Source: Cyanidioschyzon merolae
Taxonomy: Eukaryota
DNA length: 64,000 nt
Direction: 5' to 3' (one strand)
Assembly: GCA_000091205.1 (NCBI GenBank)
Contig: AP006490.2
The notes beneath the pieces were generated by a model. That model had not been told where the DNA came from. It worked only from the letters and a program-made list of their open reading frames with translations, and ran no database searches. Below, one piece after another: positions 4,431-50,510 of the stretch. Within the stretch, counting starts at the first letter, position 1; the number at the start of each line of letters is the position of its first letter. The translations under genes were made by a program, and so were the position numbers.

Positions 4431-5909
4431 ATGGCGCCGCTGCAAGAACTTTTGAAGTCGAGCGGCGAGTCCGCTAAGCGAATATCTGCTCACAGTCACG
4501 TGAAAGGTCTTGGGGTTGATTGTGAGACAGGAGTTGTGAGAGATGTCGAACAAGGCTCGGAGCAGTTTTGCGGACTTGTTGGACAGACTCCAGCGCGCGA
4601 GGCAGCCGCTTTGGTCGTGGACTTGATCAAACTCAAGAAGATGGCTGGACGTGCCGTGCTGCTCGCAGGGCCGCCTTGTACGGGGAAAACGGCTATCGCC
4701 CTTGCCATTTCACGGGAGCTTGGGAGAAGGGTTCCCTTCTGTGTTCTGAACGGCGCGGAAGTGTATTCCTCCGAGGTGAAAAAAACGGAAATTTTGACGA
4801 GCCACTTTCGAAGAGCGATTGGCGTGAGGGTCAAAGAAATAAAAGAAGTCTACGAGGGCGAAGTGACGGAGCTGGCGGCAGAGGAGTCTCCAGTTCCTGA
4901 CCCAGCGAGTGGTTATTCACGCTCAATATCGCGGGTCGTAATTGGCTTGAAGACCACGAAGGGCACGAAAACGCTGCGGCTTGATCCGAGTGTACACGAA
5001 GCCATTTTACGTGAGCGTGTTGAGGTTGGTGATGTTATCTATATAGAGGCATCGTCGGGTACTGTGAAGAGGGTCGGTCGCTGCGAGGCCTATGCCTCTG
5101 AGTTCGACATAGAGGCTGATGAGTACGTGCCGCTTCCGAAAGGAGACGTACACAGACGCCGTGAGGTCGTGCAGGACCTCACGCTGCATGACTTTGACGT
5201 CGCGAACTCCAGACCAACTCAAACTTTTTCAGAAGATAACGACGTTATCGCTGTGCTCAATAATCTAAGTCGGCCGAAGAAGACCGAGATAACCGACAAA
5301 CTTCGGAACGAAATTAACCAGTTGGTGAGCCAGCTCGTTGATCAGGGAAAAGCGGAAGTCATACCTGGTGTCCTGTTCATCGACGAGGTGCACATGCTGG
5401 ACATTGAGTGCTTCACGTTTCTGAATCGCGCTCTAGAGAGCAATTTAGCACCCATTGTGATTTTTAGCACGAATCGTGGAATATGCACTGTCCGTGGCAC
5501 AGACATGCAAAGCCCGCATGGGATTCCCTACGACCTATTGGACAGATGCATGATTATTCGAACTGAGCCATATTCGAAGAACCAAATTCAGCGCATTCTT
5601 TCTATTCGTGCCAAAATAGAGTCCATTTCCGTCCGCACTCTTGAGCCATTAGCATGCGAGAATGAGAACGGTGAAGAAGGGGAAAGTTCCGCTATTCCTG
5701 ATGATGCTCTACACATTCTAGCAACTGTTGCTGAAAGGACATCGCTGCGATACGCATGTAATATCCTTACACCCTCTTACATACTAGCGAAGGTTGCGGG
5801 TAGAGACCAAGTAACTGCTCAGGATATTCACGAGGCGAATGCATTGTTCTTAGATGCGAAATCATCAGCAAAGTTTGTAATGGATAGATCGGAGAATTAC
5901 TTGTCATAA
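4431..5909 (+). CDS. RUVBL1: RuvB-like 1 AAA+ ATPase (Pontin/TIP49a/Rvb1 orthologue), 492 aa, uninterrupted
   Basis: ATG at 4431; similarity to RuvBL1 along the whole length (…[12 protein letters not shown]…, Walker A GPPCTGKT, Walker [11 protein letters not shown]-terminal …LRYxxQLLTP…); TAA stop at 5907-5909. Confidence 0.9.
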
Positions 5910-7837
5910 AATGAATCTTCGATCCCCCGATCTTTGATTGTTACCAATAGTTCTCGTTTGCCTCTTGCGGTAGACAAGGACCATATTCCAAGATCCCTCA
6001 GTCGACGTATTGCCCTTTGGACCCGAGATTCTAAATTGTACAGAATCCTGTCCATGCACAGAAGAAATTTTTGGAGAAGCGTCTGTTCAGGTGGCAGGTT
6101 CCTACTGATAGTATCAATAACTGTCGGGTTCGATCTGGGAACGCCCACATCTAGATGATTCAAGCTAAGGCGGTGCGCCGATTCAACCTTGCCGCCGGAG
6201 GCATAGGCATAGATCTCGTACTTTCCATCAGAATACATATGCCCAGTTGGTTTCATCGCGCGCCCGGACGGAAATGCAACAGAATGCCGCCAAAGGCGAA
6301 CATGGTTTCGAACGTGGTTTTTCAAATACCCAAAGCGTCGTATCCTGTATACGTGAGGAGTACTCGTCCGAGCGGAAGAGGCAGGAATATTCACAACAGA
6401 ATCCATTTGGCGGCTGTCATCTGCTGCATCGAGCTGGAAACCCCCGTCTGTGTCCCTTGCAATCGAGGATGCTCTCTGGTTCGCCTGTAGAGGTTGATTG
6501 ATCAGCTCTCGCCTTATTCTGGTTCTCGACAATGCCCACGTGGGATCGAGAGGAAGCCTCCGACGGTGAAACCAGTCCATAATATGCGAGTGATAGCGAA
6601 GAAGTACCCGAGTATCGTTGCTCTTTGTCACCAAGTGTGAGTTTCGCGTTTCCCGTGTACGTCGTCCAGATGGAAGCAAGAACTTTGTAGTATCAGTGTT
6701 CTTGCTAATCGTAATAGAAAGCGCGGCAGTACTGAGCCCAACAACGCCGGCGTTGACTGCGTCCATTCCGAGAAAAAGAAAAAACAGGGTGCTTAGAGCG
6801 ATAGCAACTGGTACAGCTGTAATCTGGCCTCGAGTCGTTGACGGTAAAACGCGATACGTATTAAACAGCCGCGCATCTGCGTAAGTCTTTCGCCCCGATG
6901 AGTGTACGTGCAGTGATAATCGCTTACGAGACAAACCCGTAAATGCTCCAGTTGTAGACTGTAATTGTCGAAACCACATTGAGAAGCGGCTAGCAGCAGA
7001 GATGAGCCCCGAAGCTGGCTCCAGAGCCTCATCGTGCACAATCAGGTTACTGTTTTCCGATGGAAGGTGGCCCCGAATCGACCCTAGAAGTTCGCGATGA
7101 CCTGCTACATGAACGAGATGTTTCCAGGATATTTTGATATTCAAATTCGATGGATCGAGTCGCTTGAAAAAGAATCTGGAAGCCCACGCAGCGTAGCGCA
7201 CTAGTCCATTCATTTGCGATAAACGAGGAGAGTCGAGGTTCTCTCCGGAGACTTCGACTGCACTTTGTGCTCCATAGGTAGTTCCGGACTTTCTCCATGA
7301 AAGCAAATGATAAAAGTGACGTAGACTGGGCCCTAGTCGCTTCGAGTCACTTCTTGCAAGCTTAAACGAGAAAGTTAAAGATCGAGCGACGAGCGTCGCA
7401 CTACTGAGCGCAACTCGCAGCCATCTAGCCACACAAGCACTGTCGTTCACTGCACGCTCTTTTGTATGATTGTATATTGCCGACAACGCTCGGAAAGAAG
7501 CGCTTTGGCCAAAGCTTTTCTCTCGAGCGGAGCCTATCTGCTTCGAATCGTTTGCCCTTGTTGGACGAAAAGGTTCGCCCTGCTTTTTCCAGCTGTGCCC
7601 GTCATCTCTCTCAAGTGCGCACCAACTCTTCCATGCGGGTTGTTTTCGATTGCTTAGCCCTGTAGTCCCAAGTTTTCTGGCATGCCTCCGTGAAAGATCA
7701 GGTCCACCGGACGTTCCGACAAAGAGCACGGCTGCCGGTGTAGTTTTTGTCCGAACTGTCTCTCGTCGTAAGTTGGTGCGTTCAACTGGAGGAACTTTGT
7801 TCCTTCGGAACTCACCCTGGACTCCGTTGCCAGTCAT
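5897..7837 (-). CDS. hypothetical protein, 646 aa from first ATG (track ORF opens with TTG at 7855); Arg/Ser-rich, one hydrophobic segment (…[28 protein letters not shown]…)
   Basis: A 1.9-kb stop-free frame is very unlikely by chance at about 50% GC. I recognise no domain. Its 3' end overlaps the RUVBL1 stop region by 13 nt. Confidence 0.35.
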
Positions 7838-8831
7838 ATGCTCCCGAACTGCCAAAACACAACAGTATTCATTTCAACGTTGCCCTGAGAACACAACCTT
7901 TATGAATGAACTTTCGCTGTCGCGCTACGATCATGTTGCCGCGCACACACCTCGCGACGAGTCGATCGCGGTCGAGACGAACCGGAAAAAGTTCCTGCAG
8001 ACGTCAGTGCGGATGTTCTGTGATGGAACGCTGTCTCTGGTCGGCGACCATAGAGATGCATCCGGTATCACCACAGGCTGGTCCCCGGCATTGTATTGTT
8101 TGCATCTTGGCGAAAACTGGATATATTCATTGCCCTTATACCATGAAAAAAATCATCATTAGCGCTCGCGCTAGTCTCGATTCCCAGAAGCCAGCTGGAT
8201 CGGCCCGAGAGACTTCATCGCTTTAACAACATGGAATAATCATCGCAGGCCCGCGCCGTGGATCTCGCACCTAGGATACCTTTGGACGAGTCATCCGTCT
8301 CTTATAGACTGGATGAGGGCTCTGGATGCAGGGAAGGGCGATCTCTATCGTAATTGCTAGCTGTACAAGCGCAGCTACAGGATGATGGTTAGGCTCATCG
8401 ATCTTCCACTATGCGAAAGCGCTATTTGGTGGCACAAGAGACTGCAAATTTATATTTTACGTTCATAGCGTGGCATCAATGCATCTAATCTGCATTTTCT
8501 CTGGCAAGGACAAGGGAGAAAAATTTCGGTTGTACGAGTCACTCAAATAGAACGCAGGCCCGAGCTTGTATGTACGTCGCTGGACCTAGATAAGTGGCAG
8601 CCCATCCAGTGCCATCCTGCCTGAACTTTGCTTCAAATGCCCGCACTTCGAGTGCTGCCCAGTAACCGATATTGCCCCAGGGCAGCAATCCTGATGGATT
8701 AGATCTAATTCAGAGACAGCGCCGAGCGCATCGCAACGCACATCTTGTGGAGGCAGGACGGCCCCAGCATTTGGAGGTGTCCGATCGTATACGACGTGTA
8801 AAATTTTGTCGCTGCGAACGAGCGTAGCAGC

Positions 8832-10112: not shown

Positions 10113-11547
10113 AACCTAATCGTAAAAGAGATGCACGAAACGATTGCAAAGCCACCCAACGGTGCTATGGCACAGCAGCCTCTCCGTGGCACGACCTTCG
10201 GAGCCGGATCACTGAAAGTGACGAGGAACGATCACAAGTGTTACCGTTTGAAACTAAATACGAGCCTCTTGGCTTTCCGGGACCGACCAGAGAAGATGAA
10301 TTCTGACGAAAACCCAGTATTGGAGGAGCGGCGCACTCAGAACAAGACTTTGCAGTGGCATCTGCGATTCGGAGTGCGTATCCATGTGCCCTACATATGA
10401 ACACGAGTGACGCGAGCCATATCTTTTCATAGTTTTGACCAAGGGCGCCGACAAGAGGTTGTAGAGAGAGAAAGAGAACGAGCGCATGGCAGAGCTTTGC
10501 ATAGAAACAGCGGCGGCAAAGGCCAGTCCTCGAACTGGTGGGCCCTGCAGTTGTGCCCGCCCGTGAGCAGCGAGCATTCTAATAGGGGAAGAACGAGGAG
10601 AAACTAACCGCTAACTAGCAACTCGATAACAGTGCTGTTTGACATTGATAGTAAGCGTTGAAAAGGGGAAAGTTTCCGTATCTTCGAAAGCTTACCCTAT
10701 AGGCGGAAGGTCCCGCTAGCCGGACGAGTCTCCAAGGATCGTGCTTTATGCTCCTCCAAGTGGAAGGTGCTGTATTGAAATCTGAGCGGATCGTCCGCAA
10801 CGCAATTCATTCTGGGACTAGGAGCGCGTATGCTGCGTCTGGGCGTCGCCTTGGTCGCAGTGGGCTCTTTGTAGATCGGTTCGCGCTATCGCAGGCTCCC
10901 AGAATAATTATGTACTCCGACGTCGTGTCGGATGAATTACGCCTCGAGCCGACGCCCTCAGTGGAATGGCAATGCCGTCCTGTATCCGTGCAGCATCTGC
11001 TTCAGCGGGATAAGCGCAACGGCGGGTGCTCACGGCAGGCAGTCGTCGCAGGACAGAACGTGCGAGACGACCAGTATATCCGAGAGGAAATATCGGTAAT
11101 GGAACTTGAATGTAAGTGCTTCATGATGCACGCCTTCCCGGAAGCCAGTCTCCGTTCCGAATTCTGGGATCCATCGTAAATGTAAACTTTTTGTCATCTG
11201 CAAAAATCTGCGATTCGGAAGCATCGTCAATAATGGACGCTTCTTTTGCTAGTGTCCTGGGTAGATAGCATCGTCGCTCTCTGAGCATGGCGGTTTTGAT
11301 GTGGTACAGACTGTCGCTATGGCGCTGTGTGCCTGCCTGGATCGCCTCTGTTTCATTCAGCGACAGTACGTCTTTGAGTCCTTGTTCGCGTGCCACTGCG
11401 GGCTTGCGTGAAAGACTGAATATGCGTTTTCCTTATGTTTTCATAGGAACGCGCCCACTGTCTTTTTCTTGAGCGCTTGGAAGACTTGCTACACTTGTTG
11501 CAAAAGAGGGAACACTGTTTCGGCAAACCGGGGAAAACTTGCTGGTT

Positions 11548-12471
11548 ATGCCCACACAGCGCAGGGACCTCGAAGTGCAGCGATCCTATGTTTTTTTCAC
11601 AGAGCTTATTTCGCATGCAGAACTATATTCACCACCTCTGGAGGTTACCAAAGCGCAAACTTTGATTTCTGCCGTTCAAGATATCCTGCACAACGTTCGC
11701 GCTGGTGATTCAACGCTCGCCGCAATACTTTGGAAAACAATACCGGTCCACAGTCGCTTGTCGGGAGCGGCGCACTTGAACGCTTTATCAGGTCTGGCTG
11801 CGATCCTTTCAACGATACACTTATCTTCGATAGCTCACAGCTCGCACTTGGTTCGCTCCTGTTTTAGGCGAACTATTCGAGAGCTCGAATCATTTGGGCC
11901 GAAGAGCCTAAACCGTGGAAGTAAGCTCTACTCAGCAATAATTCTTTTCGGCATGCTTATTCACGAGCGAGTGATCAGCGCTGAGGCGCTGCTGGTTTTG
12001 TGGCAACATCTACGGGAATGCTTTGTTCGGATACTGGGTGCGGGACTGAGTTCCCCGCAGGAAGCGATGGACTTGGACGCCGCTGACTGGACGCTACATG
12101 CTGCCCTGGATATTGCATATATAACTGGCGATATTCTTGCAAAAGAGGAACCTGGGTCCAAAATTTACACTGGCCTATGTCTATTCAAGGAGCGCCTTCG
12201 GCGCGCAATATGGGAGGGCGTTCTAGAGCATCACGCACAACCGTGCCGTATGTGCCACATATCCTCCGAGCGCAGCCTTGCGGAACGAGCGGTAATCTTT
12301 GTCGAGGCTTTGGATCGAAACGGTGCTGGAGTTCTCCAACGGAATGCGCATCGGGCATCCACGGATCTGCTTAAAGAGATATGTATGCCCCCTGAGCTCA
12401 AACAAGGTGTCCACCGTTATCCATGCATCTCATTACCCGCATTTCAGAATAGAAGGGAACGGGTCTTGTAA
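11548..12471 (+). CDS. hypothetical protein (307 aa from first ATG; the track ORF starts with TTG at 11539)
   Basis: long ORF, no recognisable domain. Confidence 0.3.
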   Translation: MPTQRRDLEVQRSYVFFTELISHAELYSPPLEVTKAQTLISAVQDILHNVRAGDSTLAAILWKTIPVHSRLSGAAHLNALSGLAAILSTIHLSSIAHSSHLVRSCFRRTIRELESFGPKSLNRGSKLYSAIILFGMLIHERVISAEALLVLWQHLRECFVRILGAGLSSPQEAMDLDAADWTLHAALDIAYITGDILAKEEPGSKIYTGLCLFKERLRRAIWEGVLEHHAQPCRMCHISSERSLAERAVIFVEALDRNGAGVLQRNAHRASTDLLKEICMPPELKQGVHRYPCISLPAFQNRRERVL

Positions 12472-14440: not shown

Positions 14441-14606
14441 CCGCGCTCCACTCTTATTCAAGACAACGTTCCTCGCGGATTCCCAATCACAGAGAACGAG
14501 AGGTTGACAAGATTCAAGTATTGAAAACTGTCGCTCCTTACTTAAGCACACACTTAAAGCTCGAAGCCTTTGAGTGAACGAAGTGCAGAAGAGTCTGTTT
14601 GCCTCT

Positions 14607-16487
14607 ATGAAAGGAGAACGGAAACGCCCTCAGAGGCACGACAGGGACGCAGATAGAGAGCTGGCGTTGCGCCTCCACAACGAAGAAAAACAGGAGCTTC
14701 GAGGTTTGCGTCGCCAGACCCGAACTTCTGCGGATAAAGCTGTTGTGGAAGACGCAACAGTGATGGGTAGACCATGTGAGACAGTCACTGGATTGGATTC
14801 TTTTCTGAGCTCCTGTCTAAACGAAACAGGCCGACATTCACGCCCCCGAGCGAGCAGGAAAAGAACAGTTGAGAACGCTTTTGAGCATTTTTCTGTCGCA
14901 AAATATACAGAAAAGCATGCAAAACTCGAACCTCGCAAGCAAGGTACCAGCGCCCTACCCATAGACGAGATTCAGACTGTGCCAATCAAGGACCTCGATC
15001 AGTTTCCGAGCTGTGTTGGAGTTGCAGAGAACCAGAAAACCTCAAGCAGTCTTCGTAGGCAGATACGGGAGCAAATTAGGCGCTTGAATGATGGATACTA
15101 CATCAACTGTGATCTTCGTTACTTCAACCTTGCGTACTTGCGTGAATGTGTGGGGAATTTCGACGTGGTGCTCATTGATCCCCCGTGGCGCATCGCGGGC
15201 GGCCAGCGAGCGAGCACGCCGAATGGACCCATGTTCACCAATAATCACTGGGCAGTCAACTATAATACGTTGTCCAATGAAGAGATTCTGGATTTGGACA
15301 TTGGATGCCTCTCGAATAGTGGTCTCTGTTTCCTCTGGGTCGTCTCATCCCAGCTGCCAACAGGTATGGCCTGCCTCTCGCGCTGGGGCTACGAATACAT
15401 TGACAAAATCACGTGGATCAAGAAGCGCCAGGGGAAGCTCCACGTGAGCCACGGGTATCATTTCATGCATTCATCTGAATTGTGTCTCATTGGGGTCAAG
15501 CGGCCCTGCGAATTCATTGGAAAAGTTTCAAACGATCTCATTTTCGCAGAGGTGCGTGAAAAAAGTCGCAAACCAGATGAATTGTACCATGTTGTTGAGA
15601 CAATGCTTCCAGGTACTGCCAAGATAGAGCTTTTCGCTCGGAACCACAATATTCGCAGAGGCTGGCTGAGTTTGGGTAACGAGCTCGGTGAGCAGTTCTG
15701 CGACTGGTTCAATGACTTCGAATGTGACATGTGCGGAGCACGCATTCATTTCGGTGAGAGGCGGTACAAAGCGAAAAATCGACCCAATTCGGACTTTTGT
15801 CGGGACTGCTATCTGGAAGCAATTTCCGCAGGAGTGACAACGGAAACAGAGTGGTTCGAGCTGGCTAATGATGCCGCAGATCCTGTCTATCATGAGTACT
15901 ACGAGTGCAATCATTGCAACATCTATCCCCTTTGGGGAGTCCGCTTTCATAGAGACCCAGACATGGATCTTTGTGAGCAGTGCTATGATGAGCTGGTAGC
16001 CAATGACGCGGAAACAGAGGATGCGTCCAATAATGCACGCACCAGCAGCCCTGACGACTGGACTGCGATCGAGTCTCCTATTTGCGGCGGCTCGTTACCT
16101 GTCCACCGCAATATTCGCTGTTCATCCTGCCTCCAGTGTCCGATCATTGGATACCGCTTCTCATGCACCTGCTGCGAGAATTTAAGCTTGTGTCAAAAAT
16201 GCTTCTTTCAACAAAAATGCCCCAAAGGGCACAATGCAGATCATGACATAGTGATCATTGTCGATTCTGAGGCCGCACTGAACGCGCTTGTTCGGTGCGA
16301 TGGATGTGGAATTCGCCCCATCCTTGGTACGCGATACAGATGCAATACCTGTTACGCCTTTGACCTGTGTGAGACGTGTTACAAGAAAGTTGAGCAAGGA
16401 GAATACGATTTGCAACAGGTTTCTCAAAAGAAGTTAGCGGAACACAATCGATCTCACGCGTTTTCAGCGATTCCCGTCTCAGCCTGA
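14607..16487 (+). CDS. MT-A70 family N6-adenosine methyltransferase (METTL3/IME4-like catalytic domain) with four C-terminal ZZ-type zinc fingers
   Basis: Track ORF begins with GTG at 14574; first ATG is 14607. Catalytic motif VLIDPPW; …FAEVREKSRKPDELYHVVETMLPGTAKIELFARNHNIRRGWLSLGNEL… closely parallels the METTL3 C-terminus. Four CxxC…CxxC…H…H modules follow; one (CSSCLQCPIIGYRFSCTCCENLSLCQKCFF…GHNADHDIV) matches the dystrophin/p300 ZZ pattern. TGA stop. Confidence 0.85.
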   Translation: MKGERKRPQRHDRDADRELALRLHNEEKQELRGLRRQTRTSADKAVVEDATVMGRPCETVTGLDSFLSSCLNETGRHSRPRASRKRTVENAFEHFSVAKYTEKHAKLEPRKQGTSALPIDEIQTVPIKDLDQFPSCVGVAENQKTSSSLRRQIREQIRRLNDGYYINCDLRYFNLAYLRECVGNFDVVLIDPPWRIAGGQRASTPNGPMFTNNHWAVNYNTLSNEEILDLDIGCLSNSGLCFLWVVSSQLPTGMACLSRWGYEYIDKITWIKKRQGKLHVSHGYHFMHSSELCLIGVKRPCEFIGKVSNDLIFAEVREKSRKPDELYHVVETMLPGTAKIELFARNHNIRRGWLSLGNELGEQFCDWFNDFECDMCGARIHFGERRYKAKNRPNSDFCRDCYLEAISAGVTTETEWFELANDAADPVYHEYYECNHCNIYPLWGVRFHRDPDMDLCEQCYDELVANDAETEDASNNARTSSPDDWTAIESPICGGSLPVHRNIRCSSCLQCPIIGYRFSCTCCENLSLCQKCFFQQKCPKGHNADHDIVIIVDSEAALNALVRCDGCGIRPILGTRYRCNTCYAFDLCETCYKKVEQGEYDLQQVSQKKLAEHNRSHAFSAIPVSA

Positions 16488-17192: not shown

Positions 17193-18011
17193 TCAGGAAA
17201 CAGCTGACTTCACAGCAGTTTCATTTTTCTGAGAACTTTCAACCTTTTCATCCTTTTCTAGAGACCCCGGATTCCGTTTGTGAAGGAATCGCGAAAGATG
17301 CTGCGGCTTGAGAGTCCAGACCGCCTGATTGCCTACCACGACCGTTTCGAAATAGTCATTGAGCGCAAGTGTATGCCGGATCGCGCTTTTAATCCACATG
17401 TGGTCGTGGACATTTGGATGCAGCTCGAACACGCGGTCGACTATGTCGTCATAGAGCATTCTATGCCCCTCCGCAGAAGCGATGAGTTCACCGAGGTATT
17501 GTGGCAAGTCGTTGATGAGGCGCTGAGAAATCTTGCTCTCCGTAAGCGGTGCTCGATGCCCTCCTTGCTCACTCTGAGCCATAGTAAGAGGCGTCTTGTA
17601 CCGCAAGTCTGCACCGCCTAGTTTCTTCCTTTTCCGAGGTCCAAGTCCTTTCGCGCAAGGCAGGAGAAACCAAAGCGTACAAGAGCCGGCCTGCAGAACG
17701 TCCTGGCTTCGAAGCTGAACAGGTGCGCTATTCGGGCAAACGAACGATCCGTTCACTTCCATCCCGTTTTTCCCCTGAACAAATAGTTCGAAACTCTGCA
17801 TATCTACGTTCAACGCGATTGTTGCGTGGATTCGGGACACTGCACGGTCCCGAGAGGGCAACCATAAGGTATACTCCGAAGCCAACCCAGCAGTTTTGTT
17901 GCTGCTTCGACCTATGGTCAAAGTAGGCTTGGTCATATAGTGACTTTGTGACTCGGTTATGATTTTCGCATAGAGTATAGCTGGAACTTTCGTCTCTGCT
18001 AAGTACGGCAT
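17193..18011 (-). CDS. FHA domain + forkhead (winged-helix) DNA-binding protein, compact (272 aa from first ATG)
   Basis: FHA: …TLTIGRSSNKTAGLASEYTLWLPSRDRAVSRIHATIALN…FELFVQGKNGMEVNG…; forkhead: …YDDIVDRVFELHP…WIKSAIRHTLALNDYFETV…NQAVWTLKP matches the W-x-NSIRHNLSLN…YWTL signature. Track ORF starts with TTG at 18032. Confidence 0.75.
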   Translation of the reverse strand: MPYLAETKVPAILYAKIITESQSHYMTKPTLTIGRSSNKTAGLASEYTLWLPSRDRAVSRIHATIALNVDMQSFELFVQGKNGMEVNGSFVCPNSAPVQLRSQDVLQAGSCTLWFLLPCAKGLGPRKRKKLGGADLRYKTPLTMAQSEQGGHRAPLTESKISQRLINDLPQYLGELIASAEGHRMLYDDIVDRVFELHPNVHDHMWIKSAIRHTLALNDYFETVVVGNQAVWTLKPQHLSRFLHKRNPGSLEKDEKVESSQKNETAVKSAVS

Positions 18012-18031
18012 TAGTGCCCTCGCGAACGCCA

Positions 18032-19501
18032 ATGACTAAACGACAATTGGCACTGTATATCGCGGTTTCCATGAAAGTGCTCCAAAGCTGTCGCTTCGGC
18101 CAGTTGCGAAAACTTTTGTTGATTATCGTGCTCGCTATTTACATAAGAGCGTCCATAGGCCTCTTCCCTTACTCTGGAGAGCACAGACCTCCAAGATTCG
18201 GAGACTATGAAGCGCACCGTTACTGGAGCGCAGTGACGCTGCACATGCGGCCAGTTGCGAACTGGTATACGCATCCCGGTGACTACTGGGTTATAGACTA
18301 CCCGCCCCTATCCGCTTATTTGGCTTTCGCTATTGGCATTTGCGCAAGACTTTTAGATTTTGAGGGCGCGGTGCAAGCCGACGCCTACGGTTACGAGAGC
18401 GAGTCGAGTCGTGCTTTCTTCCGGGGGACTGTGCTGCTTGTAGACTTGCTGTTCTTTTTCCCAGCAGCATATTTCGCGTCTGGTGGCGATCTCAACCGCT
18501 TTGCGTCCCTTACCCTGTTTCAGCCCTGCTGGATTTTGATCGATCATGCCCACTTTCACTACACATGTATCCAGCTAGGTTTCATCCTATGGATGATCGC
18601 GCGATATCGCACAATCAAGCTCACTATGATAGCGACAGCGGTGCTCTTCAAGCAGACATCCATCTACTTCCTGCCCGTCCCTGCAATGGACGCGCTGCGA
18701 CAGGCATGGAGGCGAGCGTTCCCAGACAACGATGTCCTTTTTTCCGTTCTTGTTGCTCTTTTCATCCTGTACCCGTTCAAGTTGGACGCTTTGTTAAGGA
18801 GGGTGTTCCCATTTCATCGAGGCGTTTTCGAGGACAAGGTAGCAACGTTTTGGTGTACAATATCGCCGCTGCTGCGTCGAACTGGGCTCCTACGGAGCAG
18901 GTTTCTGCCCCCAGCCTGCGGGCTCATGACCCTAGTGGCAGTTATCCCGTTTCTTATGGGCTCACCGGGTCGTTGTATTACGGAAAGCGATCGTCTTCGG
19001 CTATGTATTCGACTCACAGGGTGCTCGCTTGCGTTCTATCTTTTCTCGTACCATGTTCATGAGAAGCATATTCTCCTACCACTTTTGCCGCTATCGTTAT
19101 GTGCCCATGAGTATCCTGATATCATCATTTGGGCCACTTCCACGGCAGTATTCTCTCTCCTGCCTCTGTTTTTGCATGAAGGCTCAGCGATGGCGCTAGT
19201 AGCGCTGATAATTTGGACGTGTTTAGGAAGAGGTCGCCGTCCTTCTGTAGCCTGGATGCTTCTCGCCCTTCCTCTTGGAATACTTCTCGCTGTTGACGGG
19301 AATCCTTTTCGGGAACGTTATCCGTACTTGCTTCCTTACTTCGTTGCAATCTTCTGCTTCCTGAACTTTCTTATGCTCCTGCTTTGGTGTTACAAAGAGC
19401 ACGCAAAGTTGTCGGGTTGCTCTTTCACTGTCGAGGGCGCTCGGAACTTGTTGTTTCGCTCCTTGAATTTTTCGAGGGCTCCGCCACAAAAACTCTCATA
19501 A
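18032..19501 (+). CDS. ALG6: dolichyl-P-Glc:Man9GlcNAc2-PP-dolichol alpha-1,3-glucosyltransferase (ALG6/ALG8 family, ALG6-like), multi-pass membrane protein
   Basis: …PPRFGDYEAHRYW…WYTHPGDYWVIDYPPLSAY…, …FHRGVFEDKVATFWC…, …FYLFSYHVHEKHILLPLLPLSL… match conserved ALG6 blocks. Track ORF starts with GTG at 18014; first ATG is 18032. Confidence 0.85.
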   Translation: MTKRQLALYIAVSMKVLQSCRFGQLRKLLLIIVLAIYIRASIGLFPYSGEHRPPRFGDYEAHRYWSAVTLHMRPVANWYTHPGDYWVIDYPPLSAYLAFAIGICARLLDFEGAVQADAYGYESESSRAFFRGTVLLVDLLFFFPAAYFASGGDLNRFASLTLFQPCWILIDHAHFHYTCIQLGFILWMIARYRTIKLTMIATAVLFKQTSIYFLPVPAMDALRQAWRRAFPDNDVLFSVLVALFILYPFKLDALLRRVFPFHRGVFEDKVATFWCTISPLLRRTGLLRSRFLPPACGLMTLVAVIPFLMGSPGRCITESDRLRLCIRLTGCSLAFYLFSYHVHEKHILLPLLPLSLCAHEYPDIIIWATSTAVFSLLPLFLHEGSAMALVALIIWTCLGRGRRPSVAWMLLALPLGILLAVDGNPFRERYPYLLPYFVAIFCFLNFLMLLLWCYKEHAKLSGCSFTVEGARNLLFRSLNFSRAPPQKLS

Positions 19502-23572: not shown

Positions 23573-24337
23573 TTATAGCGCACATCTAGACATGCTTGCT
23601 TTGATCGCGCGCTCGAGAAGAACCAAGTGCGACTCTAGTACCCACCGTCTGTGCCCCCACAGCGCCGACAATGGCTCGGATGATTGACTGCGTTCGCCTA
23701 TGATGATGCAGTAATCTGAGGTTTCCCTCAGGTGATAAACCGATAGTTGGAAGCCGCGTGAACCAGTGATGCTCCACATCCTATGTCCGAAATGATTCAA
23801 ATTCATGCAATCATCATCTCGTGACGTGTATCGTGCGAAACGGTGCCGGGGAGCGCTCAGAACATCGAAAATTGTATCCGCAGCATACGCTGCAGATGCG
23901 AGAAAGAGGGGCCCTATCATATCACTTACGTTATTTTCACCGCTGTCCGTTGCAGCGCAATAGCTAGCCAATACTTTGGAATCGCTCTTTCGCAGGAGGA
24001 GCGCCCGTCTAACGTTTCGGTTACGAAACGTCTCGTCTATCCAGCTCGCGAAAATTGAGCTAATATCGTGCTTCCCCTCCGATGAGGCCTCTGACGAAGT
24101 TTTCGGCGCGTCTGCGATCGCGTCCCTACTTTCAGCGGAGACTTGCGAAACTGACAGACCGGTGCAGTGCGCTTTCGTTTCGCCCGGCAGCTCGTTCGCC
24201 GGCTCCTGCTGCGGTGCCTGAGGTGTGTCGTTACTTAGTGCTTCGAGATTTGCTGGTAGTCCACCACGGTTCTCAGTCCCAAAGTCCCTTTCAACGGCCA
24301 AGCAGGGAAAACAGGTCCTGAGTAACCGCGAAGTCAT
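23573..24337 (-). CDS. hypothetical protein (254 aa from first ATG). The track ORF starts with TTG at 24430, and its first 26 codons lie inside the inverted-repeat terminus.
   Basis: long ORF without recognisable domain; its first ATG (24337) lies 18 nt outside the inverted-repeat arm. Confidence 0.3.
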   Translation of the reverse strand: MTSRLLRTCFPCLAVERDFGTENRGGLPANLEALSNDTPQAPQQEPANELPGETKAHCTGLSVSQVSAESRDAIADAPKTSSEASSEGKHDISSIFASWIDETFRNRNVRRALLLRKSDSKVLASYCAATDSGENNVSDMIGPLFLASAAYAADTIFDVLSAPRHRFARYTSRDDDCMNLNHFGHRMWSITGSRGFQLSVYHLRETSDYCIIIGERSQSSEPLSALWGHRRWVLESHLVLLERAIKASMSRCAL

Positions 24338-24422
24338 GCTGAGAACCCGCTGCCGACAGCGAACGCCTTTCAAAAGAAAAACGTTGCTGCCGGCGGTGGA
24401 CAGGAGCAGCGAGGAAGCCGCC

Positions 24423-25527
24423 CTAGACAAGACGTCTCCAACTTACGTACAGACGCCTCCCAGTCTCTTTCGACCGGCCACCCACTACTGGTTCCAACTT
24501 TTTCTCATATAATCCTACCTTAAGCGGTTGTCCAACAAAATATTCTCTTGTCAACTCCGGAGGTCTTCTTTCCATCACCGCACATTTCCTTATATTGATA
24601 GCGGCGTTAAAGTTTCGATTCACAAACTGCATGCGTTTCTTGCCATTGGTAGTTGGACTCACTAGTGCAAGTAGTCCACGAACTTTCGTCCTCCTTTCCA
24701 CTTGCTCTTTCGTCAGCGCTCCGAACATTTTTATATCCTCAGGGGTCTGCTGGCACTTTTCATCTCCAATCTCTGACGTTTACACCCCAATTGGTGGTGT
24801 GTATTGGTCGTTCGGAACTCATCTATCGGTATCGTGACGAAACGGTATGCGCACTCCTTGTACGCTCGTGTCGTTGGAGATGGCGCACACCTTTTTTTCG
24901 ACGCCCAGCGCCTTGCTCCGTATGCCACTACGAGCCTCTGACTCTTGTGCTCCTTCAGGGCGCTCAACTGATTGAAAAAGTTCGCGAGCGCGCGCCGCTT
25001 CCCACAATACAGGTTCACACGCAGAGGAGCCCACCGGCGATTTGTATACTCTTTCCACAGCGCCTCCCAATGAGCAGCGCGAACTTCCATGAATTTCAGA
25101 AAAGTCTGAAAGTCCGCTCCGCGGCTCGTCACCTCGCTCATAGCTTCCAGGTGGTCCTTCATTCCTTCGTTCCACATCTCGATTTTCTTCCTCGCATTCA
25201 TCATACCGGATTCTCGATAGTATCTCGCTCTCGAGAGCTTTAAAAGACGCATGTCTTTCTGACTTAAGTTGCCTTCAATGCCTCTTCCGCGCGCTTGGGT
25301 GCTGCGATGGCTATAATATTCGTGTTTCTGGGGTCCGCGCCAACGACAACGTCGTTCTCATGTACTTCTCGCGTCGCATGACCCGCCTCCTTCTCATCTT
25401 CATGCTTCGCCGCATCAACGACAAAGTCGGTCTCCTGCACCTCCTGCGTCGCAGGTTCCGCATCCTTCTTTTCTTCATGCTTCGCCGAGTGCGAAGCCGA
25501 AGACGGAACTGGACGATCCGCCTTCAA
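24423..25527 (-). pseudogene. C-terminal catalytic half of TnpB/Fanzor-like protein in copy A (RuvC-I, RuvC-II region, degenerate zinc ribbon, RuvC-III), split across three frames
   Basis: frames change at 25264/25252 and 24731/24728; RuvC-III Asp position is Asn (NRNF) in this copy. Confidence 0.6.
25369..25520. repeat. ~75-nt imperfect tandem duplication inside copy A (mirror in copy B at about 33037-33188)
   Basis: duplicated peptide AKHEEKKDAEPATQEVQETDFVVDA / AKHEDEKEAGHATREVHENDVVVGA immediately N-terminal to the RuvC-I motif; copy C has a single unit. Confidence 0.5.
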
Positions 25528-47594: not shown

Positions 47595-50510
47595 TCGACA
47601 CAAGCGGTCGTGCCCGCGAGCAGCAGCGTACCCCAGTGTGTGAGGGCGAGGCAACGAAGGTTTCAACGGAGCGAAAACGTTTCGCGACTGCAGAGTACAC
47701 CAATACCGACGTACAGACGCCTCCCCGTCTTTTTCGACCGGCTGGCTGCCATCGGCTTCAGCTTTTCCTTGTACATTTCGACCCGGAGAGGTTCCCCCAC
47801 AAAATTGGCTCTTGTAAACTCCAGAGGTCTCCTCTCCGGCACCGCACATCTCCATATATTTGTAGCGGCGTTAAAGTCTCGATTCACGAACTCCATGCGT
47901 TTCTCTCCGTTGTGGCTGTACTCAATAATGTGAGTAGTCCTCGAACTTGAGCCCTCCGCTCCATTTCCTGTTCTGTCAGCTCTCCGTGCTTTTCTATATC
48001 CTCAGCGCTCCGCCGGCACTTTTCCATCTCGACCTGCTGAAATTTACACCCCAGCTCGTGGTGTATACATGACGTTCGAAACTCATCTACCAGTATTGTG
48101 ACAAAACTGTGTGCGCACTCCTTGTACGCTCGTGTCGATGAAGCTGGTATACTCCTTTTTTGGGAACCGAGCGCCCTGAACCGTATGCTATGATGAGCCT
48201 TGGACTCTTGGTCTCTTTGAGAGCGCTCAACTGATTGAAGAGATTGGAGAATGCATGTCGCTTCCCACGGTACAATTTCATACGCTGACGAGCTCAGCGG
48301 GGCTTTGTGTACTCTTTCCCCAGCTCCTCGTGATGAGCAGCTCGTGTTTCCATGAACTCTAGAAAAGCTTGAAAGTTCGCTCCGCGGCTCTTCACATTAC
48401 TGATCACTTCCAGGTGCTCCATCGCTCCTGCGTTCCGTTTCTCACTTTTTTCCTTGCATTCATTATTCCCCATTCTCGGTAGTATCTCGCTCTCGAGAAC
48501 ATTAAAAGACGCGTATCGTTTCAGCATAAGTTGCCTTTGGTACCATTTTTGCTACATTTGGGAGCAGGGATGGTCATGATGTTCGTGTTCCCAGGGTAAA
48601 GGACTACGACAACGTCGTTCCCCTGCAGCTCCTGCGTCGCAAGATGCGCCTCCTTTTCTTGATGCCTCGCCGAGGACGAAGCTGTAGACACAATAGGACG
48701 ATCTGCCTTCAAGCGCCGATAGTGTCCATACATGTATACTCCATCGCTTCCGATCATCCACGTGAACACCTTTTTCTTGCTCATTTTGCGACGTTTGAAA
48801 TCGAAGATATATCTACAAAATGACTCACGGTTTTCGCCAGTGAACTCCTCCCTGCTTACATTGAACTCCGAGCTGATCTCCCTCATGATACCGTCATGGG
48901 CTGCGAAGTCGATTGTCACAAAGTGCTACGTGATCTCGCATATCGGAACGACATGGGAGCGCTTCCCCAGAAGCGCAGCCTTCCGTTTCTCCGACTTTTT
49001 TCCCACAACCGGCTCCATTTCGGCCTTGCGTTCGAGTTCTCGGTTCACGAACGCGATGCAGCCCAGGATGAGAGGATAAAATCTATTTTCATCTTTGTTT
49101 CATATCTGATACCTATTCTACTGGGTTGACCAGCCCCAAAACTGCACGTTGCTCTTGAATAGTCGCACGGATCACAGAGGCGTCATTCTTTCCTATGTGT
49201 GATGTGTTCTCGTCGATGAATTCGATCTTCTTTTCATTCTTACTATCGTTAGCGATGCCATCGACGAGGGTCCATCTTGCCCTGCGAGATACGCCCGGGT
49301 AGAGTGCAAGTGTGAAGCGTACCATGAAGCGTTTGAGGTTCACGATCATGTAGTTCCTCAGGTCCGTGAGGTACTTGATCTCCCCGTAGGAGAAAATATC
49401 CGCGTCACCCCTGTGTCTAGTACCGTCGAAGCGGAATACGGGGTGAATTTCGTGGAGTGCACGTTCTTGCTCATTTCTCCTGGAGGTTTCCCCAATGCCA
49501 AATATCAGTTGACCAATAAAGGTTTTGCTGAGAAACCCTTCCGGGACATCGACTGTTTTGATGTGCGGCACGTAGCGATACATCTCCCTCGCCATATGCA
49601 TCAGTCCCAAAGAAGTGTTACGAACACTGTTCGCGAAGGAAGCGACACGGTTTCTGATGGCCCTTGCATCTCTTTTCTTGTACAGATCCTTTATACGGCG
49701 TTGAAGACAGGCTTTCACCAGCATCTCGTCGCACAGTTCTCTTTCGTGTAGCGTTTGACGTTGGGCCTCCTGCTTCTGCTTCTTTGTGTTCTCGTGTTCC
49801 GCTTTGCTCGGCACAGTTTTTCGTTTTTTTTCCGGCGGCCAACGACACCGTCCCTTTAGGATATTCTACTTCCATGTCTATATCCATGAGCGAAAGTGAG
49901 GCCGCCGAATAAATCCTCTGCAGATAGAACGGATGATGTCCTCTTTCTCATCGAGCTCGATCATACGCACAACGGACTCCCTCTCCGCAAATAATCACAC
50001 ACGCTCCGACCGGTTCGCCCGAAGCAAGTCTCACTGACAGAAAGGAATCGACTTCCCTGTGCTTCAGACCGATCGCAACGTTCCAGGAAAGCTGTTATTG
50101 CGAATTCGATGGAAGACAGCCGTGGGTGAACTAGGGCTCTGTTTTTGTGACAGTATTCGATTGTTTTCAGGACCACACGAACAAACTGGTGAGAAATGAA
50201 GGCGCCCGTTATGGCTTCTATCGTCGCTTTTGCCTTTCATACGATGAAAAATCGGTGGTTTCCTACCACGGACCGAAAGCACGCTTTGAGAAAGCCGGCT
50301 CTATGGCGCAAAGCGAATACATTTGTTTCTTTCAGTGCTCCCCACCCAAATGAGTACTGTGGTACGACTGGCCAGAAGGGGAAAGGCAATCTTTCTGGCA
50401 CTGTCCAGTGAGGAGTACATGCTACAGGCAATTCGTCTACGATCTATAAGGTACGTTGCATCGTGATTTCGACTACATAACATACACCGCAGCGAGGATG
50501 AAATAATATT
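47595..50510 (-). mobile_element. Fanzor/TnpB-like element, full-length diverged copy C (about 70% nt identity to copies A/B), sense on minus strand, interrupted
   Basis: Collinear ORF pieces 50301..50525, 50064..50282, 49113..49814 (233 aa, spanning three pieces of copy A), 48521..48919 (RuvC-I region, VVVVLYPGNTNIMTIPAP), 48294..48527, 48087..48281, 47663..47896 (MEFVNRDFNAATNI). Terminal nucleotide homology to copy A at both ends was aligned by hand. Confidence 0.6.
47663..48919 (-). pseudogene. C-terminal catalytic half of TnpB/Fanzor-like protein in copy C; RuvC-I Asp replaced (GADP to VLYP), private nonsense codon after …KEYTKPR
   Basis: same frame-shift position between RuvC-I piece and next piece as in copies A/B; stop where copies A/B encode Trp. 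Confidence 0.55.

What the first reader, a model, noticed from the sequence alone, without database searches (positions are those of the whole stretch)
14607..16487. m6A-writer-type MT-A70 catalytic domain fused to four tandem C-terminal ZZ-type zinc fingers
The catalytic domain is METTL3/IME4-like (VLIDPPW, and a C-terminal block collinear with the METTL3 …[35 protein letters not shown]… region). The N-terminus lacks the CCCH fingers METTL3 uses for RNA binding. The C-terminus instead carries four CxxC…CxxC…H/C modules of ZZ type; the third matches the dystrophin ZZ almost residue for residue. ZZ domains usually read histone H3 tails or N-degrons. This architecture could couple methylation to chromatin or protein-protein recognition differently from the canonical METTL3-METTL14 complex. 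I do not recall this fusion being described.
Basis: partly seen in the sequence, partly recalled or inferred. Interest (0 to 1): 0.55.

Follow-up and report, generated by a model that had tools for sequence, protein, structure and literature searches.

The report
Red-algal AMT2/5 adenine methyltransferase with ZZ fingers
The gene is real and has the described architecture, but it is the already annotated Cyanidioschyzon merolae member of the known AMT2/5 family, whose ciliate members establish N6-methyladenine on DNA, so it is not a new kind of mRNA m6A writer.

Summary
Window 14607-16487 (+) is one uninterrupted 626-codon gene. It encodes a disordered N-terminus, an MT-A70 methyltransferase domain with an intact DPPW motif, and four C-terminal ZZ-type modules.

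The protein is 100% identical to Cyanidioschyzon merolae 10D XP_005536017.1. MT-A70 with several C-terminal ZZ fingers is the published hallmark of the AMT2/5 subclade (Iyer 2016; Wang 2019; Romero Charria 2025). The 2025 survey already counts one AMT2/5 gene in C. merolae.

In my tree of the catalytic domain alone, the protein sits in a 99.5%-supported clade of ZZ-bearing proteins. That clade includes ciliates, Acanthamoeba, Naegleria and other cyanidiophytes, and is separate from METTL3 (96.5%) and AMT1 (94%).

Tetrahymena AMT2/AMT5 are the de novo DNA 6mA methyltransferases. The likeliest role here is therefore DNA adenine methylation alongside the AMT1 homologue, not METTL3-like mRNA methylation.

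Small additions from this work:
- ZZ1 is a four-Cys half-finger in all 16 named family members aligned.
- ZZ2 lost its second zinc site only in the Cyanidioschyzon/Cyanidiococcus/Cyanidium lineage.
- ZZ2 and ZZ4 most resemble ZZ domains solved with bound protein N-termini (ZZZ3, HERC2).

Novelty: already known. Interest: low.

The parts
14607..16487 (+). Complete intron-less CDS (626 codons plus stop) of the C. merolae AMT2/5-family MT-A70-ZZ protein.
   Evidence: ORF listing. 100% identity to XP_005536017.1/BAM79731.1. Coordinates checked by translation.
14607..15071 (+). N-terminal region, aa 1-155. It is basic, mostly disordered, has one predicted long helix (aa 15-42) and no CCCH fingers.
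   Evidence: No Pfam match at E<0.1. AlphaFold2 pLDDT is mostly below 50 for aa 41-144. Only 3 Cys and 5 His in the first 160 aa.
15072..15701 (+). MT-A70 methyltransferase domain, aa 156-365 (Pfam core aa 185-359 = nt 15159-15683).
   Evidence: Pfam PF05063 E 1e-35. PDB METTL3 133 bits and MTA1 128 bits. pLDDT is mostly 80-96, apart from the gate loop aa 197-219 and the block aa 281-290. Foldseek matches to METTL3 and MTA1.
15177..15188 (+). Catalytic DPPW motif, aa 191-194. It is followed by a 24-residue loop (aa 195-218) that is longer than the equivalent loop in METTL3 or MTA1.
   Evidence: Translation. D191, P192, P193 and W194 are invariant in 55 family members. The 17-residue gap relative to METTL3 is seen in the alignment. 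Loop pLDDT is below 50.
15633..15641 (+). F-A-R, aa 343-345. This is the 'FxR' SAM-binding signature that is kept in Tetrahymena AMT2 and lost in AMT5.
   Evidence: Translation. F343 is invariant and R345 is at least 90% conserved. The signature is described in PMC12077518.
15714..15818 (+). ZZ1, aa 370-404. A half ZZ: only CxxC...CxxC, so one predicted zinc site. The second CxxC is replaced by 'YKAK/YKSK' in all 16 aligned family members.
   Evidence: Pfam ZZ 22.3 bits alone, cut-off 21.4. C373, C376 and C401 are invariant and C398 is at least 90% conserved. C-terminal alignment.
15891..15992 (+). ZZ2, aa 429-462. It keeps the first zinc site and the acidic D-x-D-L-C motif. It has lost the second CxxC and both terminal His in the Cyanidioschyzon/Cyanidiococcus/Cyanidium lineage.
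   Evidence: Pfam ZZ 25.9 bits. Alignment with Galdieria, ciliates, Amoebozoa and Heterolobosea, which keep CxxC and H..H. D454, E457 and D461 are at least 90% conserved. The best solved relative is the ZZZ3 ZZ domain, E 8e-5.
16104..16244 (+). ZZ3, aa 500-546. A complete two-zinc ZZ (CxxC, CxxC, CxxC, HxxxH) of dystrophin/dystrobrevin type.
   Evidence: Pfam ZZ 33.8 bits. Best PDB match is dystrophin, E 1.4e-7, 17/47 identical and ungapped. C505, C508, C520, C523, C529, C532 and H546 are invariant.
16290..16457 (+). ZZ4, aa 562-617. A complete two-zinc ZZ with a long insert before the HxxxH pair. It is of the HERC2/BIG/PRT1/p62 type.
   Evidence: Pfam ZZ 40.4 bits. PDB HERC2 ZZ E 1.6e-9, followed by BIG, PRT1 and p62. 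C564, C567, C579, C582, C588, C591, H613 and H617 are at least 90% conserved.

Best explanation
This is the Cyanidioschyzon merolae orthologue of the AMT2/5 subfamily of eukaryotic MT-A70 methyltransferases, and it is of the catalytically competent AMT2 type.

Shown here:
- It is an intact, conserved, single-exon nuclear gene.
- Its catalytic domain keeps the DPPW and FxR signatures.
- That domain clusters with the ZZ-bearing MT-A70 proteins of ciliates, Acanthamoeba, Naegleria and other cyanidiophytes. It does not cluster with METTL3 or AMT1.
- The four-module ZZ array is positionally conserved across the family.

Inferred from the characterised Tetrahymena members and from phyletic co-occurrence with AMT1:
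- It uses S-adenosyl-methionine to methylate N6 of adenine in nuclear double-stranded DNA, probably at ApT sites. That would lay down unmethylated-to-hemimethylated marks, which the AMT1 homologue would then complete and maintain.
- Like other MT-A70 enzymes, it probably needs one or more partners to be active.

More speculative:
- The ZZ array is the targeting module. It may dock on a free protein N-terminus such as the histone H3 tail, because ZZ2 and ZZ4 resemble the ZZZ3 and HERC2/p62 ZZ domains that were solved with such ligands.

My confidence is about 0.93 for family membership and about 0.6 for DNA 6mA as the substrate in this alga.
For: Identity:
- 100% match to the annotated C. merolae protein.

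Architecture:
- MT-A70 plus four ZZ modules. This is the published diagnostic of AMT2/5.
- Published survey for C. merolae: AMT1 = 1, AMT2/5 = 1, AMT6/7 = METTL3 = METTL14 = METTL4 = 0. Only two MT-A70 genes (CME116C, CMH026C) were used in their tree.

My neighbour-joining tree (catalytic domain only, 63 sequences, 200 bootstraps):
- ZZ-bearing clade 99.5%, METTL3 96.5%, AMT1 94%.
- Mean identity of the window domain is 53% to non-red-algal ZZ-clade members, 41% to METTL3 and 36% to AMT1.

Catalytic-domain-only phmmer scores:
- Clade members score at least 166 bits. METTL3-type proteins score at most 148 bits.

PDB calibration:
- Window protein: 133 bits to METTL3, 128 to MTA1.
- True METTL3 orthologue: 320 to METTL3, 128 to MTA1.
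- AMT1-like protein: 99 to METTL3, 160 to MTA1.

Catalytic residues:
- D191, P192, P193, W194 and F343 are invariant. R345 is at least 90% conserved.

Phyletic pattern:
- All 10 species with AMT2/5 in the 231-species table also have AMT1. Only 2 of them have METTL3/14.

ZZ resemblance:
- ZZ2 best matches the ZZZ3 ZZ domain.
- ZZ4 best matches the HERC2 ZZ. The top two HERC2 entries are SUMO1- and histone H3.1-linked constructs. BIG, PRT1 and p62 follow.
Against: - No direct evidence that C. merolae DNA carries 6mA was found. The literature search returned no C. merolae 6mA study, and C. merolae was not among the Nanopore-profiled species.
- Tetrahymena AMT2 with AMT5 showed no activity in vitro, so the biochemistry of the family is unproven and unknown cofactors are needed.
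- C. merolae has no AMT5-like inactive paralogue and no AMT6/7, so the dimer partners used in ciliates are missing.
- I could not retrieve the Tetrahymena AMT2 sequence. The link to the characterised enzyme runs through Ichthyophthirius, Paramecium, Oxytricha and Acanthamoeba homologues and the published classification.
- The published subset tree puts AMT2/5 weakly sister to METTL3+METTL14 (54/78 support). My tree leaves this unresolved. An RNA substrate therefore cannot be excluded from sequence.
- Two of the four ZZ modules are degenerate in this species.
Confidence: 0.72

Rival explanations
1. It is the functional substitute for METTL3. On this view it is an mRNA or nuclear-RNA m6A writer in which the ZZ array replaces the CCCH fingers. 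This is essentially the first reader's reading.
For: - The catalytic domain is slightly closer to METTL3 than to MTA1 by score (133 vs 128 bits) and by identity (41% vs 36%).
- Foldseek's top hits are METTL3.
- The published subset tree places AMT2/5 nearest to METTL3+METTL14, although weakly.
- C. merolae lacks METTL3 and METTL14, so if the alga has mRNA m6A some other enzyme must make it.
Against: - It is not a METTL3 orthologue.
- It has no RNA-binding CCCH or other RNA-binding domain.
- The characterised family members act on DNA 6mA in vivo.
- AMT2/5 always co-occurs with the DNA enzyme AMT1, and mostly without METTL3/14.
- The ZZ domains solved with ligands among the matches bind protein N-termini. 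ZZ domains are not known as RNA binders; that point is from my own knowledge.
Confidence: 0.12
2. It methylates another nucleic-acid substrate, such as a small nuclear or ribosomal RNA or organellar DNA. The precedent is METTL4, which was first proposed to be a DNA enzyme.
For: - The substrate assignment of MT-A70 clades has been revised before. METTL4 moved from DNA to U2 snRNA m6Am (PMC9512776, listed).
- No in vitro activity has yet been shown for AMT2/5.
Against: - Loss of AMT2/AMT5 abolishes nuclear de novo 6mA at ApT sites in Tetrahymena, and the AMT2 catalytic motif is required.
- I saw no obvious organellar targeting peptide. The N-terminus is basic and disordered with Lys/Arg clusters, which looks more like a nuclear protein. 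This is from inspecting the sequence only and is weak evidence.
Confidence: 0.08
3. It is a non-catalytic scaffold or reader subunit, like METTL14, AMT5 or AMT7, and it presents substrate to the AMT1 homologue.
For: - MT-A70 enzymes work as dimers of an active and an inactive subunit.
- C. merolae has only two MT-A70 proteins and lacks AMT6/7. This protein could therefore be AMT1's only available MT-A70 partner.
Against: - DPPW and FxR are intact here and are invariant or nearly so across the family. Known inactive partners have eroded motifs: AMT5 has APPF/FTK and METTL14 has EPPL.
- No AMT1-AMT2/5 interaction was detected in Tetrahymena.
Confidence: 0.06

Closest known systems
Tetrahymena thermophila AMT2 (also called TAMT-1) and AMT5, the AMT2/5 subclade of MT-A70 and the de novo DNA 6mA methyltransferases
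   Same: - MT-A70 catalytic domain followed by several C-terminal ZZ fingers.
- DPPW and FxR signatures, as in AMT2.
- No CCCH fingers.
- Co-occurs with AMT1 in the genome.
- Clusters with the ciliate homologues (Ichthyophthirius, Paramecium, Oxytricha, Stentor) in the catalytic-domain tree.
   Different: - C. merolae has a single copy and no AMT5-like degenerate paralogue.
- The organism has no nuclear dimorphism or programmed genome-wide re-methylation, and no AMT6/7.
- ZZ2 has lost its second zinc site.
- DNA 6mA has not been shown in this alga.
- I did not compare the sequence directly with Tetrahymena AMT2.
METTL3 / IME4 / plant MTA, the catalytic subunit of the mRNA m6A writer
   Same: - MT-A70 fold and DPPW motif.
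- 39-41% identity in the catalytic domain, collinear C-terminal block, target TM-score about 0.8.
   Different: - No CCCH fingers, and no METTL14 partner in the genome.
- 17 extra residues in the loop after DPPW.
- Separate clade with 99.5% and 96.5% bootstrap support.
- Scores 133 bits, where a true orthologue scores 320.
- C-terminal ZZ array.
MTA1/AMT1, the maintenance ApT DNA 6mA methyltransferase of the MTA1c complex (MTA1-MTA9-p1-p2)
   Same: - MT-A70 domain with DPPW, at a distance similar to that of METTL3 (128 bits).
- A longer loop after DPPW than in METTL3.
- Present in the same genomes.
   Different: - Separate clade (94% bootstrap) and 36% identity.
- AMT1's catalytic domain ends at the protein's C-terminus and carries no ZZ array.
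- AMT1 works with AMT6/7 and the p1/p2 DNA-binding subunits, which are not part of this protein.
Solved ZZ domains, several with bound N-termini (ZZZ3, HERC2, p62/SQSTM1, PRT1, BIG), and the dystrophin/dystrobrevin ZZ
   Same: - ZZ2 best matches ZZZ3 (E 8e-5).
- ZZ4 best matches HERC2, BIG, PRT1 and p62.
- ZZ3 best matches dystrophin and dystrobrevin.
- ZZ2 keeps the C-[ND]-x-C ... D-x-D-L-C acidic pattern. In p62 and p300 the equivalent residues hold the ligand's free amino terminus; that point is from my own knowledge.
   Different: - Four modules in tandem, attached to a methyltransferase.
- ZZ1 (whole family) and ZZ2 (this lineage) lack the second zinc site.
- The acidic pocket residues are not conserved in ZZ4 across the family.
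- No ligand is known. The 2025 survey states that the function of these ZZ domains is unknown.

Membership tests
AMT2/5 subclade of eukaryotic MT-A70 methyltransferases | MT-A70 catalytic domain. | tested here: met
   Pfam PF05063 E 1e-35, 123.7 bits against a cut-off of 23.9.
AMT2/5 subclade of eukaryotic MT-A70 methyltransferases | Several ZZ-type zinc fingers C-terminal to the methyltransferase domain. This is the published hallmark. | tested here: met
   Four ZZ modules, each above the Pfam cut-off on its own. The array aligns position for position with the ciliate, Acanthamoeba and Naegleria proteins. The hallmark is stated in the papers read.
AMT2/5 subclade of eukaryotic MT-A70 methyltransferases | The catalytic domain groups phylogenetically with AMT2/5 members and apart from METTL3 and AMT1. 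| tested here: met
   Neighbour-joining tree on the catalytic domain only: ZZ-bearing clade 99.5% bootstrap, METTL3 96.5%, AMT1 94%. Caveats: the Tetrahymena AMT2/AMT5 sequences could not be retrieved, so Ichthyophthirius, Paramecium, Oxytricha and Acanthamoeba homologues stand in for them. METTL14, METTL4 and AMT6/7 were not in the tree.
AMT2/5 subclade of eukaryotic MT-A70 methyltransferases | AMT2-type catalytic signatures: [DNSH]PP[YFW] and the FxR SAM-binding residues. | tested here: met
   DPPW at aa 191-194 and FAR at aa 343-345. D191, P192, P193, W194 and F343 are invariant in 55 homologues and R345 is at least 90% conserved. The criteria come from PMC12077518.
AMT2/5 subclade of eukaryotic MT-A70 methyltransferases | Published assignment of the C. 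merolae gene to AMT2/5. | tested here: inconclusive
   The supplementary table gives C. merolae AMT1 = 1 and AMT2/5 = 1, with the two tree taxa CME116C and CMH026C. The full tree text was not held, so which locus tag is which was not read directly. This protein is assigned to AMT2/5 because it carries the ZZ hallmark. It is probably CMH026C, because its longest contig is 739,753 bp, which I recall as the length of chromosome 8. That recollection is unverified.
AMT2/5 subclade of eukaryotic MT-A70 methyltransferases | De novo N6-adenine methylation of nuclear DNA in vivo. | not testable with these tools
   This needs 6mA profiling of wild type and knockout. It has been shown only for Tetrahymena AMT2/AMT5.
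METTL3 / IME4 (mRNA m6A writer catalytic subunit) | N-terminal tandem CCCH zinc fingers next to the methyltransferase domain. | tested here: not met
   No Pfam hit in aa 1-163. Only 3 Cys and 5 His in the first 160 aa. The region is predicted mostly disordered.
METTL3 / IME4 (mRNA m6A writer catalytic subunit) | Orthologue-level similarity of the catalytic domain to METTL3. | tested here: not met
   133 bits to the human METTL3 catalytic domain, against 320 bits for a chytrid METTL3 orthologue. The protein lies outside the METTL3 clade.
METTL3 / IME4 (mRNA m6A writer catalytic subunit) | An obligate METTL14 partner encoded in the genome. | tested here: inconclusive
   There is no second MT-A70 gene in the 64-kb window (tblastn). 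The rest of the genome was not available to me. The published survey scores C. merolae METTL14 = 0 and METTL3 = 0.
AMT1 / MTA1 (maintenance DNA 6mA methyltransferase) | The catalytic domain groups with Tetrahymena MTA1. | tested here: not met
   128 bits to MTA1, against 160 bits for an AMT1-like protein. The AMT1 clade is separate at 94% bootstrap and identity is 36%.
ZZ-type zinc finger (PF00569) | Profile match above the curated threshold. | tested here: met
   Whole protein 79.9 bits. Single modules 22.3, 25.9, 33.8 and 40.4 bits against a cut-off of 21.4.
ZZ-type zinc finger (PF00569) | Full eight-ligand, two-zinc cross-brace (CxxC, CxxC, CxxC, H/C-x-H/C). | tested here: inconclusive
   By sequence, ZZ3 and ZZ4 are complete. 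ZZ1 and ZZ2 keep only the four Cys of the first site. Metal content and geometry cannot be measured here. The AlphaFold2 run returns no coordinates or metals.

The most novel reading that the evidence does not exclude
C. merolae has only two MT-A70 genes (AMT1 and this one) and lacks AMT5, AMT6/7, METTL3 and METTL14. In this setting the protein could be a minimal de novo DNA 6mA methyltransferase that targets itself. Its ZZ2 (ZZZ3-like) and ZZ4 (HERC2/p62-like) modules would read the free N-terminus of histone H3, or of another chromatin protein. That would couple adenine methylation directly to nucleosomes, and would give the first function to the ZZ array that the 2025 survey calls 'of unknown function'. 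A less likely variant is that the protein pairs with AMT1 as its only MT-A70 partner.
Probability: 0.2. Interest if true: 0.45.

Novelty: already known. Interest (0 to 1): 0.15.

Why it matters
As a discovery it matters little. The gene is annotated. The MT-A70-plus-ZZ architecture has been in the literature since at least 2016. The family has a genetically demonstrated role in Tetrahymena. The C. merolae copy is already counted in a 2025 survey.

Its residual value is practical. C. merolae has a 16.5-Mb, nearly intron-free genome, and homologous-recombination knockouts are routine there (both points from my own knowledge). According to the published table it has only AMT1 and this AMT2-type gene. 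That makes it a very simple background for asking three open questions:
- Do red algae have DNA 6mA at all?
- Can an AMT2-type enzyme work without AMT5 or AMT6/7?
- What do the ZZ fingers bind?

Tried and rejected
1. Retrieving Tetrahymena AMT2/AMT5 for a direct comparison. Homologue searches seeded with the Oxytricha and Ichthyophthirius proteins, plus two cluster look-ups, returned Paramecium, Ichthyophthirius, Stentor and Acanthamoeba names but no Tetrahymena entry.
2. Reading the published full MT-A70 tree to see which of CME116C and CMH026C is AMT2/5. Judging by its size (17 kb) and by each C. merolae label occurring only once, the stored file seems to hold only the taxon list. I did not open its end to check. 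The supplements of Wang 2019, Iyer 2016 and the Science Advances paper are not held.
3. Surfacing the MTA1 sequence from the PDB by querying with only the N-terminal half of the catalytic domain. METTL3 entries still filled the top five. The sequence was obtained later through an AMT1-like hit.
4. Locating the chromosomal record with the look-up of encoding contigs. Only short metagenome and Logan contigs were returned.
5. Literature searches for 'MT-A70' with 'ZZ domain' and for 'CMH026C' returned nothing. The architecture was found under the wording 'ZZ-type zinc fingers', 'ZZ-domains' and 'ZZ zinc finger domains'.
6. A METTL3-orthologue reading was rejected on score calibration and on the tree.
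7. No METTL4 chain appeared among the 60 listed PDB matches of the window protein, and the architecture already pointed to AMT2/5.
8. Operon-style or neighbourhood logic was rejected. The window is eukaryotic nuclear DNA with unrelated housekeeping neighbours, no second MT-A70 gene, no tRNA genes and no Rfam hits.
9. The AlphaFold2 model and Foldseek search added nothing beyond the sequence result.
Full report
**What is at the coordinates**

A single open reading frame runs from 14574 to 16487 on the + strand. The first ATG is at 14607 and an in-frame stop lies just upstream at 14571. The 626-residue product from that ATG is 100% identical, end to end, to Cyanidioschyzon merolae strain 10D XP_005536017.1 / BAM79731.1. 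That entry is annotated 'similar to (N6-adenosine)-methyltransferase'. The window is therefore nuclear DNA of this nearly intron-free red alga.

The neighbouring genes are unrelated housekeeping genes. They include a TIP49/RuvB-like ATPase, a peptide-chain release factor, an FHA/forkhead-like protein, an ALG6/ALG8 glycosyltransferase, PP2C, XPF/ERCC4, a PLP-dependent enzyme, a cyclin and others. The window holds no second MT-A70 gene, no tRNA genes and no Rfam hits.

**Checking the observation**

- Pfam finds MT-A70 at aa 185-359 (E 1e-35) and ZZ in four stretches (E 1e-22).
- Scanned separately, each of the four modules passes the ZZ gathering score of 21.4 bits: 22.3, 25.9, 33.8 and 40.4 bits.
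- DPPW lies at aa 191-194, and the SAM-binding 'FxR' is present as FAR at aa 343-345.
- The first 160 residues have no domain match, only three Cys and five His, and are mostly predicted disordered. The METTL3 CCCH fingers are absent.

The one overstatement concerns ZZ3. Dystrophin is its best solved match (E 1.4e-7, ungapped), but identity is 17/47, or 36%, which is not 'almost residue for residue'.

**What family it is**

The first homologue search returned about 65 proteins with the same MT-A70 plus ZZ architecture. They come from:
- other cyanidiophytes: Cyanidiococcus 66% identical, Cyanidium 53%, Galdieria 47-48%;
- Naegleria and Willaertia;
- Oxytricha;
- many environmental protists.

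Further searches and cluster look-ups added Paramecium, Ichthyophthirius, Stentor and Acanthamoeba. One Paramecium entry is already named 'Putative N6-adenosine-methyltransferase with ZZ-type zinc-binding domains'.

The literature describes this architecture explicitly:
- Iyer et al. [quoted passage not shown]
- Wang et al. [quoted passage not shown]
- Romero Charria et al. [quoted passage not shown]

The distribution table in the 2025 paper scores C. merolae as AMT1 = 1, AMT6/7 = 0, AMT2/5 = 1 and METTL4 = METTL3 = METTL14 = 0. The two genes used in their tree are CME116C and CMH026C. The claim that the fusion is undescribed is therefore wrong, and this very gene has already been counted.

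**Independent tests of membership**

1. Score calibration against solved structures.
   - The window protein scores 133 bits to the human METTL3 catalytic domain and 128 bits to Tetrahymena MTA1.
   - A genuine chytrid METTL3 orthologue scores 320 and 128.
   - An AMT1-like protein scores 99 and 160.
   - The window protein is thus equidistant from both and an orthologue of neither.
2. Catalytic domain alone. Family members score at least 166 bits against the window domain. METTL3-type proteins score at most 148 bits.
3. Tree. I built a neighbour-joining tree of 63 catalytic domains with the ZZ regions removed and ran 200 bootstraps.
   - The ZZ-bearing proteins form a clade with 99.5% support. 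METTL3 has 96.5% and AMT1 (including Tetrahymena MTA1) has 94%.
   - The window protein sits in a red-algal subgroup (81%) inside the ZZ clade.
   - Which of METTL3 or AMT1 is closer to the clade is unresolved (48.5% vs 37.5%).
- This agrees with the published subset tree, where AMT2/5 (99.8/100) joins METTL3+METTL14 only weakly (54/78).

Caveat: I could not retrieve the Tetrahymena AMT2 sequence itself. The link to the characterised enzyme rests on ciliate and Acanthamoeba homologues and on the published classification.

**How it most likely works**

In Tetrahymena, AMT2 (DPPW) and AMT5 (eroded APPF) are required for de novo establishment of 6mA at ApT sites in the developing macronucleus. 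The AMT2 catalytic motif is needed. AMT1 then maintains the mark. The pair shows no activity in vitro, so further cofactors are implied. No AMT1-AMT2/5 interaction was detected (PMC12077518).

The window protein is of the AMT2 type. D191, P192, P193, W194 and F343 are invariant across 55 homologues, and R345 is at least 90% conserved. In the 231-species table, all ten species with AMT2/5 also have AMT1. Only two of them have METTL3/14.

I therefore infer a SAM-dependent DNA N6-adenine methyltransferase that works upstream of the C. merolae AMT1 homologue. This step is inference. I found no report of 6mA in C. merolae, and the alga was not among the Nanopore-profiled species. It also lacks the AMT5 and AMT6/7 partners used in ciliates.

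**The ZZ array**

I aligned the C-terminal regions of 16 named family members. The four modules are conserved position for position from red algae to ciliates, Amoebozoa and Heterolobosea.

- ZZ1 is a four-Cys half-finger in every aligned member. The second CxxC is replaced by a conserved R-[YF]-K-[SAY]-[KRQ] stretch (YKAK here).
- ZZ2 has the full ligand set in Galdieria and in most non-red-algal members. In Cyanidioschyzon, Cyanidiococcus and Cyanidium it has lost the second CxxC and both His together. That pattern indicates a real lineage-specific loss of one zinc site.
- ZZ3 and ZZ4 are complete.
- ZZ2 keeps a well conserved C-[ND]-x-C ... D-x-D-L-C pattern. D454, E457 and D461 are at least 90% conserved.
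- ZZ2's best solved relative is the ZZZ3 ZZ domain (E 8e-5).
- ZZ4 best matches the HERC2 ZZ. The top two HERC2 entries are SUMO1- and histone H3.1-linked constructs. BIG, PRT1 and p62 follow.

From my own knowledge, ZZZ3, p300 and HERC2 ZZ domains bind the histone H3 N-terminus, and p62 and PRT1 bind N-degrons, through such acidic residues. The array is therefore a plausible chromatin or protein-N-terminus docking module. This is a hypothesis. The acidic residues are not conserved in ZZ4 across the family, and no ligand is known.

**Structure prediction**

An AlphaFold2 model built with the 55-sequence family alignment has mean pLDDT 73 and pTM 0.63. The catalytic domain and the ZZ modules are mostly confident. 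The N-terminus (aa 41-144) and the loop after DPPW (aa 197-219) have pLDDT below 50. Foldseek returns METTL3 catalytic domains (target TM-score about 0.8) and MTA1 (0.71-0.74). This adds nothing beyond the sequence result.

**Verdict**

The gene is an already annotated member of the already described AMT2/5 family. [quoted passage not shown] Interest is low. The residual value is that C. merolae is a very simple, tractable system for testing what AMT2-type enzymes and their ZZ fingers do.

Noticed in passing
window 15891-15992 (ZZ2, aa 429-462): ZZ2 has lost all four ligands of its second zinc site (the middle CxxC and the terminal H..H) in Cyanidioschyzon, Cyanidiococcus and Cyanidium. Galdieria and most non-red-algal family members keep them. 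The acidic D-x-D-L-C motif is retained.
   Followed up: partly
window 15714-15818 (ZZ1, aa 370-404): ZZ1 is a four-Cys 'half ZZ' in all 16 aligned family members. A conserved R-[YF]-K-[SAY]-[KRQ] stretch (YKAK here) stands where the second CxxC would be. On its own it only just passes the Pfam ZZ threshold, 22.3 bits against 21.4.
   Followed up: partly
window 15189-15260 (aa 195-218, loop after DPPW): The loop between DPPW and the conserved Y219 is 24 residues long, against 7 in human METTL3 and 18 in Tetrahymena MTA1 (alignments). It is predicted with pLDDT below 50. From my own knowledge it corresponds to the flexible substrate gate loop of METTL3. Its sequence is partly conserved in the family (F210 and N212 are at least 90% conserved).
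   Followed up: no
window 17193-18032 (-): The convergent downstream neighbour encodes an FHA domain (E 5e-8) followed by a weak forkhead-like match (E 2.6e-4, below the Pfam cut-off). The architecture resembles fungal Fkh/Fhl1-type factors. Its ORF start overlaps by 19 nt the GTG-started ORF of the divergent ALG6/ALG8 gene at 18014-19501, so the true ATG of one of the two is probably further in.
   Followed up: no
window 5897-7855 (-), 11539-12471 (+), 23573-24430 (-), 49113-49814 (-), 59056-60408 (+): Five long ORFs (233-652 aa) have no Pfam family at E<=0.001. They could be lineage-specific red-algal proteins. They were not examined further.
   Followed up: no
L001-L003 (metagenome and Logan contigs carrying the identical protein): Exactly the same 626-aa protein is encoded on at least 19 short contigs from JGI metagenomes (for example 3300009503 and 3300054705) and from a Logan run (SRR29605862). 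This implies that C. merolae-identical algae are present in those environmental samples.
   Followed up: no
P0297 (RZK17851.1), a member of the cluster of P0269: A partial MT-A70-ZZ protein is deposited as 'MAG: hypothetical protein [Flavobacterium sp.]'. It sits in a cluster whose representative is 55% identical to the Ichthyophthirius protein. It is probably a eukaryotic (ciliate-like) contig mis-binned into a bacterial MAG.
   Followed up: no
window 49685-49768: tblastn with the human METTL3 catalytic domain gives a weak 28-residue match here (43% identity, E 0.007), inside the ORF at 49113-49814 (-) that has no Pfam hit. It is most likely chance.
   Followed up: no
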